From: Escherichia phage vB_EcoS-101114BS4
Strand: one strand, 5' to 3'
Length of the DNA: 45,251 nucleotides
Sequence record: NC_073061.1
Of this stretch, positions 7,097 to 43,238 are shown in pieces; the first letter of the stretch is position 1; each line of letters starts with the position of its first letter. The translations under genes were made by a program, and so were the position numbers. A model generated the notes under the pieces. The model saw only the letters and a program-made list of their open reading frames with translations. It was not told the origin of the DNA and made no database searches.

Positions 7097-8183
7097 TCAA
7101 CATATGGCGGATCGCATGATTCGCCGTCACATCTTCACCCAGCGCCTGAGCAATGACCAGGCGCGGCGGGTGTTGGCTATGTGGGAGAAGTTCCGGCCCA
7201 CGTTACTTGGCAAGCTGACCGAGTTACTTGATGGCAAAAAGTCCATGAATAACAAGGCACTGACCACACTGTTAACGCAAATCGACAAGACCGTCAAAAC
7301 GGAACTGCGCACCGAGTTTAAGGCGCTGGCTGAAAGCCTTCAGGAGTTTGCCGACACCGAGGCTGATTATCTTGCCGATACATTAACGGCAGCGATCCAG
7401 CCTGCGGTAGCCGTACCGGCTGTTGAGGTTGTTGGCGTAGTGACTGGCGCGCAGATTGCAGCCACGGCTATGAAAAACCCGTTCCAGGGAAACACCATGA
7501 TGCAATGGCCTGATTCACTTTCTGAGTGGACCAGGACGCAGATCGGGAATCAGGTGCGCGCTGGATTCATCCAGGGCAAGCCGACTATGGAAATTATCGC
7601 GGACGTAAAGCGCGCTCTCGGCGGTCGTAGCGCGCAAGCTATCTCAAGTGTTGTTAAGTCCGCAGTAAACCACTATGCGGCGACCGCCCGCGAGTTAATG
7701 GTGAAAGCTAATGACGATATTCTCGAAGGTCGCCAATGGTTGGCTACATTGGATACGCACACATCACCAATGTGCCAGCTACGCGATCGCCTGTTTTATC
7801 CTGTTGACGTCACTCCCGACACCAAAGGAAAGCGCGGCGGGAAAGTGGTGGCTGGATCACAATATGGCGCTGGTCCGGGCAAGCTACATTATTGCTGCCG
7901 TTCGACGGAGACGTGGAAAGTTAAAGGCATGGAAGATTGGCCCAGTGGTAAGCGTCCGGCACTGAAGGCTGACGCGGGTCGATTGCTGAGTGAGCAGGTC
8001 GACGCGCAGACTGATTTCTTCTCATGGGTGCAGCGCCAGCCGCGCCATATTCTGGAGGAATTATATGGGGTGCAGCGCGCAGACCAGATTATGCGCGGCG
8101 TGAAAGTGCCGAAGATGTTCACCGATACCGGCGAACTAATGACTATCGCACAGCTTAAAAACCGGGGGTTATGGCGTGATTAA
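7080..8183 (+). CDS. Head morphogenesis (minor head) protein
   Basis: 367-aa ORF overlapping the portal 3' end; position typical of F/gp7-like head morphogenesis proteins. Confidence 0.55.
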   Translation: MARTINQHMADRMIRRHIFTQRLSNDQARRVLAMWEKFRPTLLGKLTELLDGKKSMNNKALTTLLTQIDKTVKTELRTEFKALAESLQEFADTEADYLADTLTAAIQPAVAVPAVEVVGVVTGAQIAATAMKNPFQGNTMMQWPDSLSEWTRTQIGNQVRAGFIQGKPTMEIIADVKRALGGRSAQAISSVVKSAVNHYAATARELMVKANDDILEGRQWLATLDTHTSPMCQLRDRLFYPVDVTPDTKGKRGGKVVAGSQYGAGPGKLHYCCRSTETWKVKGMEDWPSGKRPALKADAGRLLSEQVDAQTDFFSWVQRQPRHILEELYGVQRADQIMRGVKVPKMFTDTGELMTIAQLKNRGLWRD

Positions 8184-8484
8184 ATATGCAGCGATTGGAC
8201 TGGTTATCGGTCTGGCGGTTGGATTCTGGCAGGGTGATTCCTACCGCACTGGCGTTGTGGCGCAAGAAGCGCAAGAAGCGCAAGCGAAAGCCCAACGGCA
8301 GCAAACTAAGGTTGTTGAGGGGTCGGTGAAGGCTGAGCAGGCCCGCGACGTGGAATACCGGACTATCACGAAAGAGGTTGTAAAATATGTTACGCGTCCT
8401 AACCGTCCTGATTGTAGTTTTGATGCTGAGCGCGTGCGGATCAAGCAAAGCGCCATCGACGCCGCTAACCGAGTCGGTCTATAG
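8176..8484 (+). CDS. i-spanin (Rz-like)
   Basis: GTG start; N-terminal transmembrane anchor IKYAAIGLVIGLAVGFW then charged, coiled-coil-like periplasmic region; the lipoprotein gene is embedded out of frame in its 3' end. Confidence 0.6.
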   Translation: MIKYAAIGLVIGLAVGFWQGDSYRTGVVAQEAQEAQAKAQRQQTKVVEGSVKAEQARDVEYRTITKEVVKYVTRPNRPDCSFDAERVRIKQSAIDAANRVGL

Positions 8485-8617
8485 ACCGCCTTGCACCTTT
8501 GAGAATGCATCGGCAGATCCAGACGAAGACTTGCTGGTTGATGTTAAAAATATGGAATGCGGGGCTAAGCTAAGGGCGCAAGTGCTGGAGTTGCAGAAAA
8601 TAATTCGGGGGCCGTGA
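8387..8617 (+). CDS. o-spanin (Rz1-like outer membrane lipoprotein)
   Basis: MLRVLTVLIVVLMLSACGSS signal peptide with lipobox LSAC; starts inside the i-spanin gene in another frame. Confidence 0.65.
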   Translation: MLRVLTVLIVVLMLSACGSSKAPSTPLTESVYRPPCTFENASADPDEDLLVDVKNMECGAKLRAQVLELQKIIRGP

Positions 8618-8630
8618 TGGCCCCTTTTTT
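8607..8630. terminator. Terminator, possibly bidirectional, between convergent genes
   Basis: gggggcc-gtgat-ggcccc hairpin followed by tttttt on + and by a T-rich tract on -. Confidence 0.7.
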
Positions 8631-8635
8631 GTTAA

Positions 8636-9151
8636 TTACAAACGCATCGGCATGATAACTAAAAAGGCACCTCCTTTGAACAGCACGCGTGTTGCCTTGT
8701 CTACTCCCTGAAATTCCAGTTTTAAGCCCTCAAACTTATGGTCGAACAATTTAGCAATTTTGCAGGCGTCGGACAGGTATGCCCCTTTAAACCCGATAGC
8801 CTCCACTTTATTGCTGACGAAAGACGTAACTCTTCTCCAGTCTGGAAATCGTCCGTCTACAATCTCGATGGGTATGGTAGCTATTAATACGTCTTTACTA
8901 TCGAAGAACGCGGCGGAGGTGCCGTCTATGTTGCAGTATTCGAATTTAGTAGGTAAGCGGCCTTTAATTGATACTATTTTACTTTCACCTTCTGGTACAA
9001 CCGCAGACCCGCAGAACAAACGGTGACCGTCTGTAGCCACGATGTATCCTTTCTCGTCGAAAAATACACCATTTAGGAAGTATCGGACGTCATTAGTTGC
9101 GGCGCATATCGTAGCGGCTTTAAGATCGGCGTAGTTAACTTTAATCATTTT
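8636..9151 (-). CDS. Truncated DnaN (beta sliding clamp)-like protein
   Basis: Motifs DVRYFLNG, VATDGHRL, VDGRFPDWRRV and C-terminal VIMPMRL match what I recall of E. coli DnaN domain II and its C-terminus; start taken at MIKVNY (GAGG RBS), alternative start at 9190. Confidence 0.6.
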   Translation of the reverse strand, partial: KMIKVNYADLKAATICAATNDVRYFLNGVFFDEKGYIVATDGHRLFCGSAVVPEGESKIVSIKGRLPTKFEYCNIDGTSAAFFDSKDVLIATIPIEIVDGRFPDWRRVTSFVSNKVEAIGFKGAYLSDACKIAKLFDHKFEGLKLEFQGVDKATRVLFKGGAFLVIMPMRL

Positions 9152-9205
9152 AATTTCCTCGTGGTTATGTAGACGATAATTCGGGGCCATTACAGCCCCC
9201 TTTTG

Positions 9206-9970
9206 TTAGCGCGGAATACCGCAGATTTCGTTTAACGTCTTCACATCCAGCGCTACTGCCGTTGACTTCGGCTTGTCCGGGTATGGAATGAATTGTTCAA
9301 CTTCAGGCCACGCCGCGATCAGCTTCTTGTCAGTATTGTGCATATCCAGCACGCCGGTAACGGTTAGTTTGAACGCGTCATACTTCGCACGCAATTCACG
9401 GCGGGCCTTGTCGTTGTGGTCCAGGCGCTTGCAGAAATCATGCTCTGCCGGGTAGTCTACGCGACCGCGTGGTAGATATATCGGCAGCGCTTTTCCGTCC
9501 TCATCCACTTCACATACTGACGCGAGCATAATTTCCTCGTACCCCGGTACAATATCGCTAACGTCAGGCGCGAGCGTATTCATATATTTTTCTTCCCAGT
9601 ATCCGCGGTGCTGGCGGTAGCGGTATCCGTCGCCGCTCATATGCAGGGTACGGATGTTACCGCCTGCGTTGATTTCGAAAGTGGAGCAGTAAACGCGTCC
9701 AATGCCTTTCTGACGGTCTTTGTTATAGCTATACGTCGCCTCGTCGGTGTAAACGCTGACGCCGTACATCTGCGACTGGTTATCGCGGATTTCTGCGATA
9801 TATGCGCGTAGCTCGGCGAACGTGTGAATGCCTTCTGGCATACAGTCCAGCGTAATTGCGTACGCCAGGTCGCGAGAGGCCATCATGATTGATTTGGCTT
9901 CAGTCGCGATTTCGTGGTCGCGCAGGATGTTAGCCAGAATCTGGTTTTTAATGTCTTTTGTCAGTCTCAT
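9206..9970 (-). CDS. Hypothetical protein, co-transcribed with the DnaN-like gene
   Basis: 254-aa ORF starting MRLTKDIKNQ with GAGGA RBS; no motif recognised; antisense to the flanking structural genes. Confidence 0.6.
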   Translation of the reverse strand: MRLTKDIKNQILANILRDHEIATEAKSIMMASRDLAYAITLDCMPEGIHTFAELRAYIAEIRDNQSQMYGVSVYTDEATYSYNKDRQKGIGRVYCSTFEINAGGNIRTLHMSGDGYRYRQHRGYWEEKYMNTLAPDVSDIVPGYEEIMLASVCEVDEDGKALPIYLPRGRVDYPAEHDFCKRLDHNDKARRELRAKYDAFKLTVTGVLDMHNTDKKLIAAWPEVEQFIPYPDKPKSTAVALDVKTLNEICGIPR

Positions 9971-40973: not shown

Positions 40974-43238
40974 ATGAGCTTAATTAAATTCGCAGTAACA
41001 AGACCCGCTAAAAAAGGCGAAAAAGCCAGGGCGGAAAACTTCGAGATGACCACTGATGAGTTTTTCGAATTTATCAATGATGCGAAAGAAATCTCCTCGG
41101 TGCACATCAACAAGACTGAAGATAAAGCCGAGTATGCGCGCCGCAAGCGTAAGGCCGATGGCATCGTGGCCTATACCAATGATGGGTTACGCCGCAAGAC
41201 CAGTGCGGTCGACCGCTCGATCCTGTTCTTCGATATTGACCGCACCGACACCCGCACATTACGCCGCTGCCGTAAAGCGTTCACCGACGCTGGTCTGGAG
41301 CATGTATTCCACACCACGACCGGCGACCGTCACCCACTGAAAGGCGGCACACGTTGCGCCCGTTTCCTGGTGCTCACTGACAAGCCTGTACCGGCTGAAG
41401 ACCTGGGCCGCGTCCAGTATGCGCTATTAGACCAACTGGGCCTGTCAGATGTGGACTTCGACGATTGTACGAAAGACACCAACCGCCTTATGTACCTGCC
41501 TCACCAGCAGTCTGTCATAAAGTGCCACTACGGAAAGCGCGCCCGTGTCCGTCGTCTGCTTCGCCTGGCTGACAAGCTGGGAGTGGAGAAAGAGGAAGTG
41601 CGCCGCGAACTGACCCAGGGCGCCGATGGCGTGGCGGACGGCATTCTGGATTGGTGCTTCCAGGCTGGCTTTGAACCACTGTCATCCGGTCGCGGTTATG
41701 AAGTGCCTTGCCCGAACGAGCACCTGCATAGCGGCGGCGGGTCGACGGCTATCATGGTTAAGGATGGCGAGATCCGTTTCAAGTGTATGCACACCGGCAA
41801 CGAATGCTGTTCCGAACTGAATAAACACCAGCACCTGGCGCTGCGTCTGATCGGCATCCCGGACCACTTGAACGTTGAACCGCACAACATGTCACGCAAG
41901 CAAATCGCCGCCATCCTTCCGGGACTGGACGACGAGGAAGTGGAATCATGCTATGAACATATTGTTGATGCGGTCGGCGACGGCGACGAGTACGGCGAAT
42001 GCACCGACGCTGACCTGGACAACGAACCTGTTGCACTATTCAGTAAGCACGACCCGATCATCGAAGGCCTGGTCAACTTCAAATCGACCTGGTATCTTGC
42101 CGGTGAGTCGAACATTGGTAAGTCGTTCTACGTGCTGGGCCAGATGGCGTCCGTATCTGCCGGTATTCCGTTTGGTGGCGCGAAGGTCGTCCAGTCGCAT
42201 TGCTTCTATTTCGACGCGGAAGGTGGCGAAGCCTCCAACCAGCGTAAGGAAGCACTGCAGATTAAATACGAGCACGACCTCGACAAGCTGCACATTATCG
42301 ACCTGCAATCACGCGGCTGGGATATTACCAGCAAGTCAGGCTTGCGCGAGGTTATCAGCTTTATCAACCGCACCGCTAACGGGGAGCCGGTTGGCCTGGT
42401 GGCCTTCGACTCACTCAACCAGACTGTAGCGCTGCGGTCCGCTGATGCCAAACCGTTCGACGAGAACAACGCCAGCGATATGGGCGAAGTGGTCAAGGCG
42501 CTGAAGGCCATTGCGGAAAATACAGGCGGCAGTGCGGGCGTCATCCATCACCCGGCTAAGGGTGCAAACGGCAGCAGATCCCCACGCGGGTCCGGCGCGC
42601 TTCATGGTGCTGTCGATTCTGCGTTCTTCCTGGAACAGCCGGACGATAATCAGCCAGGCCAACTCAACCTGTATCACGAAAAATCCCGTAACGGCATCAA
42701 GCAAGCGCCGCGTGGCTTCGTCCTGCTCAAATGCAAGGTGAAGGTGGATCTCCGTAAGTCCGAGGCGTTCGAAGCCCACCAGTCCACCAGCACCGGTCCG
42801 GACTTCGGCGATGTGGTTGCCGGTTGGGACGTCAAGCCAATTGCATCCACGCCACGCGACGAGACTCTCTACCTCGTACCGGTCGCCCTGGCACCGTTCG
42901 CTGTCGAACAGGCTAAGGCCGCAGGCAAGGCCGCAGTTAAGGAAGAGAACACCGCCGGACCGCGCAACGAAAAAGAGAAGGTGCTTTATGCGGCACTGGA
43001 AAAACTGATGGAAGATAACCCGGACCATACTGGATTCAGTAAATCGGCAATTGTCCGCCAGGCTGGACTCGCGAAAGGCGGAACATCGACGAAGGCAATC
43101 GACGATATGGTGGAGCGCGGCGTGCTCGGTTTTTATACAGATCCACACACCGGGGCCATCTATGGGTCGTCGAATCTGGTCATCAAATCGGATATCCCAA
43201 TCACGCTTTCGGCGACCGATGATGACCTGAAAGATTAA
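40974..43238 (+). CDS. Primase-helicase (primase/polymerase N-domain, zinc-binding region, P-loop helicase)
   Basis: 754 aa; ILFFDIDRTD, cysteine-rich CPNEHLH...FKCMHTGNECC, Walker A GESNIGKS, Walker B-like LVAFDSL. Confidence 0.7.
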   Translation: MSLIKFAVTRPAKKGEKARAENFEMTTDEFFEFINDAKEISSVHINKTEDKAEYARRKRKADGIVAYTNDGLRRKTSAVDRSILFFDIDRTDTRTLRRCRKAFTDAGLEHVFHTTTGDRHPLKGGTRCARFLVLTDKPVPAEDLGRVQYALLDQLGLSDVDFDDCTKDTNRLMYLPHQQSVIKCHYGKRARVRRLLRLADKLGVEKEEVRRELTQGADGVADGILDWCFQAGFEPLSSGRGYEVPCPNEHLHSGGGSTAIMVKDGEIRFKCMHTGNECCSELNKHQHLALRLIGIPDHLNVEPHNMSRKQIAAILPGLDDEEVESCYEHIVDAVGDGDEYGECTDADLDNEPVALFSKHDPIIEGLVNFKSTWYLAGESNIGKSFYVLGQMASVSAGIPFGGAKVVQSHCFYFDAEGGEASNQRKEALQIKYEHDLDKLHIIDLQSRGWDITSKSGLREVISFINRTANGEPVGLVAFDSLNQTVALRSADAKPFDENNASDMGEVVKALKAIAENTGGSAGVIHHPAKGANGSRSPRGSGALHGAVDSAFFLEQPDDNQPGQLNLYHEKSRNGIKQAPRGFVLLKCKVKVDLRKSEAFEAHQSTSTGPDFGDVVAGWDVKPIASTPRDETLYLVPVALAPFAVEQAKAAGKAAVKEENTAGPRNEKEKVLYAALEKLMEDNPDHTGFSKSAIVRQAGLAKGGTSTKAIDDMVERGVLGFYTDPHTGAIYGSSNLVIKSDIPITLSATDDDLKD

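What the first reader, a model, noticed from the sequence alone, without database searches (positions are those of the whole stretch)
8636..9190. Half-sized DnaN (beta sliding clamp) homolog on an antisense cassette inside the head gene module
The minus-strand protein (171 aa from MIKVNY, 184 aa from the upstream Met) carries, in order, DVRYFLNG, VATDGHRL, VDGRFPDWRRV and the C-terminal FLVIMPMRL. From memory these match E. coli DnaN domain II (DVRYYLNG, VATDGHRLA, VDGRFPDYRRV) and its extreme C-terminus (VVMPMRL), which lines the partner-binding cleft. Domain I and most of domain III are missing, so this is roughly half a clamp protomer and cannot form a canonical ring alone. A fragment that keeps cleft or interface strands could heterodimerise with host clamp or titrate clamp-binding proteins, which points to replication takeover or inhibition rather than processivity. 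The gene is antisense to the surrounding late genes, a moron-like position.
Basis: partly seen in the sequence, partly recalled or inferred. Interest (0 to 1): 0.8.

Follow-up and report, generated by a model that had tools for sequence, protein, structure and literature searches.

The report
Ringless pocket-only phage mini beta-clamp
This coliphage carries a real gene for a half-sized copy of the bacterial DNA sliding clamp that keeps the partner-docking pocket almost unchanged but has lost the parts needed to form a ring, so it most likely binds host clamp-partner proteins rather than clamping DNA; the gene is already annotated in databases, but I found no study of its function.

Summary

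The window is a Dhillonvirus, 99.5% identical to phage WF5505, where the gene is already annotated "putative DNA polymerase III subunit beta". About 14 of 157 matching, mostly Dhillonvirus, records carry it. It sits on a 576-bp low-GC cassette flanked by terminator-hairpin repeats, downstream of Nmad5 and antisense in the head module. The family is large: at least 1052 clusters and 272 phage records, many mislabelled "RusA-like resolvase".

The best reading, inferred and untested, is a ringless, probably monomeric pocket module that traps or recruits host clamp-binding proteins. Heterodimerisation through interface strands is not supported. I found no functional study. Interest is moderate.

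The parts
8636..9148 (-). Mini beta-clamp CDS (170 aa plus stop), most likely start ATG at 9148
   Evidence: ORF. Homologues are 169-173 aa and start at MI(K/R)VNY. SD GAGGA at 9160-9156, 7 nt upstream of the ATG. dN/dS about 0.2.
8828..9148 (-). Residues 1-107: DnaN domain II equivalent (E. coli about 130-247), with the pocket motifs DVRYFLNG, VATDGHRL and FPDWRRV
   Evidence: hhalign probability 99.3% to E. coli 144-250. PDB alignments. In the AF2 model the second inner helix of domain II is replaced by coil at model residues 63-71.
8639..8803 (-). Residues 116-170: equivalent of the second beta-alpha-beta-beta-beta motif of DnaN domain III (E. coli 312-366), with IGFKGAY and the C-terminal VIMPMRL
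9149..9190 (-). Possible but unlikely 14-codon N-terminal extension (the 184-aa ORF used in the WF5505 annotation)
   Evidence: ATG 9190 lies in the loop of hairpin 9183-9199. The extension is absent from all but the nearest homologue calls.
8607..8625 (.). Bidirectional intrinsic-terminator-like hairpin between the mini-clamp stop and the o-spanin stop
   Evidence: Scored as a terminator on both strands.
9183..9199 (.). Second copy of the same hairpin, between the Nmad5 stop and the mini-clamp start; weak T-tract on the minus strand, so read-through from Nmad5 is plausible
8592..8628 (.). Direct repeat copy 1 (37 nt) bounding the 576-bp cassette
   Evidence: the repeat finder family D1, spacing 576. 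Phage Oekolampad, which lacks the gene, has a single copy.
9168..9204 (.). Direct repeat copy 2 (73% identical to copy 1)
9206..9970 (-). Upstream co-oriented gene: Nmad5 (254 aa), probably co-transcribed with the mini-clamp
   Evidence: Pfam PF18757 E=1.4e-54. Start and SD. Dhillonvirus Nmad5 is the protein whose K-to-E mutation escapes Tmn defence (PMC11846954).
10000..10029 (-). Sigma-70-like promoter candidate for the antisense Nmad5/mini-clamp unit (TTGCAA, 18 nt, TATATT)
   Evidence: It lies about 30 nt upstream of the Nmad5 ATG. This is a consensus match only; the scan found no more sites than shuffles.

Best explanation
The gene encodes a ringless, probably monomeric 'pocket-only' derivative of the bacterial beta sliding clamp. 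It consists of domain II plus the second half of domain III, the smallest piece of DnaN that still contains the whole hydrophobic cleft that binds clamp-binding motifs (QLxLF-type). It lacks domain I and the first half of domain III, and therefore both sides of the head-to-tail dimer interface. This subfamily also lacks one DNA-facing helix. So it should not encircle DNA. Proposed mechanism (inferred): it is expressed from its own antisense unit and binds the clamp-binding motifs of host proteins in solution, acting as a decoy that diverts them from the host clamp. Candidate targets are clamp-loader delta, Pol III alpha and epsilon, Hda, MutS/MutL and the translesion polymerases. Delta is attractive because it binds monomeric beta about 50 times more tightly than the ring. 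Shown here: homology, architecture, fold, pocket conservation, purifying selection and cassette structure. Inferred: peptide binding, monomeric state, target identity and the benefit to the phage.
Against: There is no direct evidence of peptide binding, oligomeric state or any phenotype. The pocket is also the best-conserved part of canonical clamps, and part of its conservation could be structural. The relative sets were selected by similarity to motif-rich profiles, which inflates motif conservation. Some carriers, such as Deseoctovirus C1, have primase, helicases and recombinases but no annotated DNA polymerase. They presumably depend on host Pol III and its clamp, so an indiscriminate decoy would hurt them. 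A stoichiometric sponge must compete with avidity-enhanced binding to clamps on DNA. Asn320 is Lys in this allele and variable among Dhillonvirus alleles.
Confidence: 0.4

Rival explanations
1. Adaptor or recruiter rather than inhibitor. The pocket captures a CBM-bearing host enzyme (Pol III core, Pol I, ligase or a repair factor) and brings it to phage DNA or the phage replisome. This would make it a non-encircling accessory factor in the manner of the herpesvirus non-ring clamp-fold processivity factors.
Against: No second binding surface or phage partner was identified. The family median pI is 6.9, so it is not generally basic. The gene is dispensable in most Dhillonviruses that have the same replication module. 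No enrichment of CBM-like motifs in phage proteins.
Confidence: 0.25
2. Accessory subunit of neighbouring DNA-modification or DNA-acting enzymes (Nmad5 here; ParB-like protein, methyltransferase or ASCH protein in other phages), coupling them to replicating DNA or to host replisome proteins.
For: Probably co-transcribed downstream of Nmad5. In C1 and ZCKP8 it closes a cassette with a ParB-like protein, plus a methyltransferase in C1. In Eta it follows parB-like and in PM-CJR it follows an ASCH protein.
Against: No single partner is conserved. Kagunavirus, PSDA-2, Bcep43 and L003 carry it as a lone antisense gene. Most Dhillonviruses have Nmad5 without it. Neighbour clustering of 79 viral loci gave no dominant family; the largest cluster covered 9 loci. 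Nmad5 has no canonical CBM.
Confidence: 0.12
3. It oligomerises into an unconventional clamp, or caps and poisons an opened host beta ring by beta-sheet edge pairing.
For: Truncation leaves free beta-sheet edges. From my own knowledge, the E. coli internal-start product beta* (domains II-III) was reported to assemble into a functional clamp.
Against: Both halves of the canonical interface are deleted. One and a half domains cannot tile a regular six-domain ring. One inner helix is lost. AF2 gives a confident, compact monomer model, pTM 0.90. No multimer prediction could be run.
Confidence: 0.1
4. Decoy against an anti-phage defence or toxin that acts through the clamp pocket or carries a CBM.
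For: It is an accessory, patchily distributed, low-GC cassette. Neighbours in other phages include an ArdA-like protein, DUF7249 and a dATP/dGTP diphosphohydrolase, typical of early counter-defence regions. The adjacent Nmad5 is a defence (Tmn) trigger.
Against: No PADLOC match. I found no literature link between a defence system and the clamp pocket. This is entirely circumstantial.
Confidence: 0.1
5. Non-functional remnant of a captured host dnaN fragment.
Against: dN/dS about 0.2. At least 1052 diverse clusters share the same architecture. The predicted fold is confident.
Confidence: 0.02

Closest known systems
Bacterial beta sliding clamp DnaN (Pol III beta; TIGR00663; Pfam PF00712, PF02767, PF02768)
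   Same: Homologous sequence and fold. The clamp-binding-motif pocket residues are nearly all retained. It has the same C-terminal MPMRL ending.
   Different: 170 aa against 366. Domain I and the first half of domain III are absent, and one inner helix of domain II is lost. The dimer-interface residues are absent. It scores far below the TIGR00663 cut-off (29 against 138 bits). It is therefore not expected to form a ring or act as a processivity clamp.
Annotated but uncharacterised phage 'DNA polymerase III beta subunit / beta-clamp / fragment' proteins (PHROG 3007; WF5505_00019, EP23, TheodorHerzl, Kagunavirus gp06, Serratia Eta gp10, Bcep43 gp15)
   Same: Same family and architecture. The window protein is 100% identical to the WF5505 protein and matches PHROG 3007 end to end at E=2.5e-54. 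An antisense position inside structural modules recurs.
   Different: Nothing differs in kind; this is simply a member. Most family members are 190-250 aa with a C-terminal tail carrying a PxW motif, which this 170-aa enterobacterial subfamily lacks.
E. coli beta* (UV-induced internal-start product of dnaN covering domains II-III; Skaliter, Paz-Elizur and Livneh 1996, from my own knowledge, not checked here)
   Same: An N-terminally truncated clamp that begins near the domain I/II boundary and keeps the pocket.
   Different: Beta* keeps all of domain III and was reported to assemble into a working clamp. The phage protein lacks half of domain III and the interface.
Herpesvirus non-ring clamp-fold processivity factors (HSV UL42, HCMV UL44, KSHV PF-8, EBV BMRF1)
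   Different: They have two complete domains and bind DNA through a basic face. There is no sequence homology and no evidence here of DNA or polymerase binding.
Phage factors that act on the host clamp system: Twort Gp168 (PMC8565349), Mu MuC (PMC12867686), N4 gp8 against clamp-loader delta (from my own knowledge)
   Same: Same host machinery. They provide precedent for phage interference with, or exploitation of, clamp-CBM interactions.
   Different: Those proteins bind the clamp or its loader and are not clamp homologues. The mini-clamp would work the other way round, by mimicking the clamp's docking site.

Membership tests
Bacterial beta sliding clamp (DnaN, TIGR00663 equivalog) | Three clamp-fold domains, about 366 aa, scoring above the curated cut-off | tested here: not met
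   170 aa. TIGR00663 gives 29.1 bits against a cut-off of 137.65. Only domain II and half of domain III align.
Bacterial beta sliding clamp (DnaN) | Clamp (processivity) fold | tested here: met
Bacterial beta sliding clamp (DnaN) | Head-to-tail dimer interface (Ile78, Phe106, Ile272, Leu273) | tested here: not met
   All four positions lie in segments with no counterpart in the protein.
Bacterial beta sliding clamp (DnaN) | Clamp-binding-motif pocket (subsites I and II) | tested here: met
   16 of 17 mapped residues are identical to E. coli; only Asn320 differs, to Lys. Val344 could not be mapped. Binding itself was not tested.
Bacterial beta sliding clamp (DnaN) | Closed ring encircling DNA, loaded by the clamp loader | not testable with these tools
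   No multimer or DNA modelling was available. The architecture argues against it.
Pfam PF02767 DNA_pol3_beta_2 (central domain) | Score at or above the gathering threshold (27 bits) | tested here: not met
   24 bits, E=5e-5, partial match 25-71. Many relatives do carry a precomputed PF02767 hit.
PHROG 3007 (phage mini beta-clamp family, labelled 'RusA-like Holliday junction resolvase') | Full-length profile match | tested here: met
   E=2.5e-54, residues 14-184 on profile positions 1-186 of 190.
RusA Holliday junction resolvase | Similarity to the RusA family | tested here: not met
   No RusA family among Pfam hits at E<=1. All sequence and fold matches are to clamps. The label is unsupported.
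Herpesvirus-type non-ring processivity factors (UL42/UL44) | Two complete clamp-fold domains plus a basic DNA-binding face | tested here: not met
Known anti-phage defence components (PADLOC-DB) | Match to any defence-system protein model | tested here: not met
   No families at E<=0.1.

The most novel reading that the evidence does not exclude
Phages have repeatedly kept a minimal 'pocket-only' copy of the host sliding clamp that works by target mimicry. It would be a soluble clamp-cleft decoy that captures clamp-binding-motif proteins, most plausibly clamp-loader delta and other clamp clients, and so rewires host replication and repair. This would be a takeover principle distinct from known clamp binders such as Gp168, gp8 and MuC, and it would be spread over more than 1000 protein clusters.
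Probability: 0.3. Interest if true: 0.75.

Novelty: new variant of a known kind. Interest (0 to 1): 0.55.

Why it matters
The beta-clamp pocket is the hub through which bacterial polymerases, repair proteins and replication regulators dock, and it is an antibiotic target. A large phage family that preserves only this pocket suggests that phages use clamp mimicry to capture clamp clients. If so, it would give a natural, compact, soluble pocket scaffold for studying or screening clamp-binding ligands. It would also point to the host clamp clients that matter during infection. Natural phage pairs that differ by one 576-bp cassette offer a ready genetic test. On the practical side, the widespread 'RusA-like resolvase' label on these genes should be corrected.

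Tried and rejected
1. Alignment of the C-terminal part to the first half of domain III, as phmmer first drew it. Rejected: the C-terminal profile, the second HMMER stretch, pairwise scores (45 against 31.5) and the Foldseek alignment span all favour E. coli 312-366.
2. An obligatory Nmad5 partnership. Rejected: most Dhillonviruses have Nmad5 without the gene, and most other carriers lack Nmad5.
3. A conserved neighbour across 79 viral loci. None dominates. The largest clusters cover 9 loci: an unannotated protein and a DUF7249-like protein. An ArdA-like protein, a dATP/dGTP diphosphohydrolase and an HNH protein appear in 3-4 loci each. My ORF calling there was crude.
4. A phage-encoded CBM partner. 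A strict scan found only hits in the terminase and capsid proteins. A relaxed scan gave 8 distinct hits against roughly 20 expected from my rough estimate, including QLNLY in the primase-helicase. There is no enrichment.
5. RusA identity and defence-system identity: no support for either.
6. Literature. Searches for DnaN-like phage proteins, Dhillonvirus with Pol III, truncated beta, anti-defence with clamp, and polyvalent proteins with clamp found no functional study of these proteins. Iyer et al. 2013, the source of the Nmad5 family, was not available.
7. Complex or multimer structure prediction and inspection of model coordinates were not possible with the tools.

Full report
**Observation.** The window holds a minus-strand ORF at 8636..9190 (184 aa) containing DVRYFLNG, VATDGHRL, VDGRFPDWRRV and a C-terminal FLVIMPMRL. 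Similarity to DnaN is well above chance:
- phmmer against PDB sequences gives E=1.1e-8 to 3e-8 for E. coli-type beta clamps, query 24-159 on chain 140-284.
- TIGR00663 gives E=4.5e-7, far below its cut-off.
- Pfam PF02767 gives E=5e-5 at 24 bits, against a cut-off of 27.
- A profile of 66 relatives (A1) gives E=5.2e-29 to E. coli beta, and hhalign gives 99.3% probability.

From MIKVNY the protein is 170 aa, not 171.

**Which start.** Homologues are 169-173 aa and begin at MI(K/R)VNY. A GAGGA Shine-Dalgarno sequence lies 7 nt upstream of ATG 9148. The upstream ATG at 9190 sits in the loop of a hairpin that is a copy of the downstream terminator. I therefore take 8636-9148 as the gene. GenBank annotates the 184-aa form in WF5505.

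**Architecture.** phmmer first ran the alignment from domain II into the start of domain III. Three results show instead that the last 55 residues or so correspond to the second half of domain III:
- A profile of the C-terminal columns aligns to E. coli 314-365.
- The A1 profile gives a second stretch on 312-365 in real PDB sequences.
- Foldseek alignments to about 366-residue clamps span about 257 columns for a 171-residue query, which needs a gap of about 85 columns.

Pairwise scores agree, 45 against 31.5. The protein is thus DnaN(about 130-253) joined to DnaN(about 312-366).

**What is kept and what is lost.** The review PMC11139829 lists the pocket residues. Subsite I is R152, L155, T172, G174, H175, R176, L177, P242, R246, V247, V360 and M362. 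Subsite II is H175, N320, Y323, V344, M362, P363, M364 and R365. The hydrophobic dimer-interface residues are I78, F106, I272 and L273.
- Of 17 pocket residues I could map, 16 are identical in the window protein; only N320 differs, as Lys.
- All four interface residues lie in the deleted segments.
- Across the 66 relatives, identity to E. coli is 85% at pocket positions against 26% at 114 other aligned positions.
- That set came from a word-seeded search, which favours shared motifs. I repeated the test on 142 representatives from an exhaustive HMMER scan. Pocket columns are 83% conserved against 40% elsewhere (Mann-Whitney p=2.5e-8).

Selection by profile score still biases this, and the pocket is also the most conserved part of true clamps. 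The result therefore shows retention of the cleft, not binding.

**The gene is functional and mobile.**
- Among five Dhillonvirus alleles, dN/dS is 0.16-0.26 in nine of ten pairs.
- The window is 99.5% identical over 2 kb to Escherichia phage vB_EcoS_WF5505 (genus Dhillonvirus), where the gene is annotated 'putative DNA polymerase III subunit beta'.
- Of 157 matching phage records, mostly Dhillonvirus, only 8 cover the whole 2-kb query; the rest lack about 27% of it. By tblastn, 14 records carry an orthologue at 80% identity or more.
- In phage Oekolampad, Nmad5 abuts the o-spanin gene with a single terminator hairpin between them.
- In the window that hairpin region is present twice, as 37-nt direct repeats at 8592-8628 and 9168-9204, 576 bp apart, bracketing the gene.
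- The gene's GC content is 44.8%, against 54.4% for the window.

Together these describe a discrete acquired cassette.

**Transcription unit.** A sigma-70-like site lies at 10029-10000 on the minus strand (TTGCAA, 18 nt, TATATT), about 30 nt upstream of the Nmad5 ATG at 9970. The order is then Nmad5 (9970-9206, PF18757 E=1.4e-54), hairpin copy 1 with a poor T-tract on this strand, the mini-clamp gene, and hairpin copy 2, which scores as a terminator on both strands. The promoter call is only a consensus match, and the scan found no more sites than shuffles. The unit is antisense to the portal, MuF-like, Rz/Rz1 spanin, scaffold and capsid genes.

**The family.**
- The exhaustive scan found 1052 cluster representatives at E<=1e-30. 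The best 150 are all 170-302 aa and match end to end.
- Motif spacing shows the same deletion in about three quarters of the 94 first-round hits: about 61-79 residues from FPDW to MPxR, against about 114-126 in full-length clamps.
- tblastn finds the family in 272 phage records: Salmonella 100, Escherichia 61 and Klebsiella 26, plus Vibrio, Burkholderia, Proteus, Serratia, Pseudomonas and others.
- Labels include 'DNA polymerase III beta subunit', 'putative beta-clamp protein', 'DNA Pol III b subunit fragment' (a note on Bcep43 gp15) and, very often, 'RusA-like Holliday junction resolvase'. That last label comes from PHROG 3007 and has no support.
- BFVD holds many 163-250 aa viral models with TM 0.72-0.86 to this one.
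- Most members carry a 10-35 residue tail after MPxR with a PxW motif. This subfamily ends at MPMRL, as DnaN does.

**Context elsewhere.**
- An antisense position inside structural modules recurs. The gene lies between MuF-like and scaffold/capsid genes in Kagunavirus, Guernseyvirinae PSDA-2, metagenomic contig L003 and the Burkholderia phage Bcep43.
- In Deseoctovirus C1 and Klebsiella phage ZCKP8 it closes an antisense cassette with a ParB-like protein, plus a methyltransferase in C1.
- In Proteus phage PM-CJR it follows an ASCH protein, between tail genes.
- Elsewhere it lies in early or replication operons: Serratia Eta has parB-like, mini-clamp, helicase; see also Pseudomonas USP_18 and loci L004 and L007.
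- No neighbour is conserved across 79 viral loci.

**Mechanism.**
- The retained piece is the part of DnaN that carries all the mapped pocket residues; the discarded pieces are those needed for a ring. From memory of the clamp topology, this piece includes the beta-sheet spanning the domain II/III boundary, but I could not check that against coordinates.
- The most economical reading is a ringless module that binds clamp-binding motifs in solution.
- I favour a decoy role, with confidence 0.4, for three reasons. This phage has its own family A polymerase, AAA_25 primase-helicase, Enc34-type SSB, DUF2800 nuclease and SNF2 helicase. Phages are known to attack the clamp system. Delta binds monomeric beta about 50 times more tightly than the ring.
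- An adaptor role (0.25) is the main rival. Some carriers, such as C1, have no annotated polymerase, and an indiscriminate decoy would harm them.
- Coupling to neighbouring DNA-modifying enzymes (0.12), ring poisoning or unconventional oligomers (0.1) and counter-defence (0.1) remain possible.
- A dead remnant is excluded by the conservation data.
- The recent finding that Mu's late activator MuC uses CBMs to engage the clamp shows that CBM-pocket contacts reach beyond replication. I found no CBM-bearing phage partner here.

**Novelty and verdict.** The homology is already recorded in GenBank, PHROGs and BFVD, so the existence of the gene is not new. Within the searchable literature I found no description of three things: the precise pocket-only architecture, the selective conservation of the cleft across a very large family, and any function. 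I rate it a new variant of a known kind. Interest is moderate at 0.55: it is a well-defined, testable lead rather than a demonstrated mechanism.

Noticed in passing
window 8636-9148 and at least 20 RefSeq/GenBank phage records: PHROG 3007 is labelled 'RusA-like Holliday junction resolvase', and this name has spread to many phage genomes. The family is a truncated beta-clamp homologue with no detectable RusA similarity.
   Followed up: yes
window 9206-9970 (-): The Nmad5 gene is 254 aa, and residue 216 is Lys. In Dhillonvirus PhiSMA8 a K216E change in Nmad5 escapes the Tmn defence, and the gene was toxic to clone (PMC11846954). Equivalence of the position was not checked by alignment.
   Followed up: partly
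window 8176-8484 and 8387-8617 (+): Overlapping Rz-like i-spanin and o-spanin genes sit inside the head module, directly after the MuF-like gene and away from any endolysin or holin gene in their immediate vicinity.
   Followed up: no
window 8592-8628 and 9168-9204: 37-nt direct repeats of a GC-rich terminator hairpin bracket the gene, 576 bp apart. A related phage without the gene has one copy. This suggests gain or loss by recombination between terminator copies.
   Followed up: yes
window 40974-43238 (+), residue 563: The AAA_25 primase-helicase contains QLNLY, one residue away from the UmuC clamp-binding motif QLNLF. CBM-like matches in the window are not more frequent than I roughly estimated for chance, so this may mean nothing.
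   Followed up: partly
family members P0095-P0236: Most mini-clamps of 190-250 aa have a C-terminal tail after MPxR with a conserved PxW motif (for example LPAWA). It is absent from the window subfamily and its role is unknown; it could be a docking or auto-inhibitory peptide.
   Followed up: no
loci L054, L063, L069, L077, L078, L086-L088, L092 (gene +1 or -1): A small protein with a weak DUF7249 match (YNGWTNYATW motif) is the immediate neighbour of the mini-clamp gene in 9 metagenomic viral loci. A weak ArdA-like protein is the downstream neighbour in 3 loci.
   Followed up: partly
window 8636-9148 versus the whole window: The mini-clamp gene has 44.8% GC, against 54.4% for the window and 52.3% for Nmad5. 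This is consistent with horizontal acquisition.
   Followed up: yes
BFVD hit A0A6J7W9M3_1: A 1394-aa 'large polyvalent protein-associated domain' protein from an uncultured phage contains a region structurally similar to the mini-clamp (E=8e-6, TMq 0.52).
   Followed up: no
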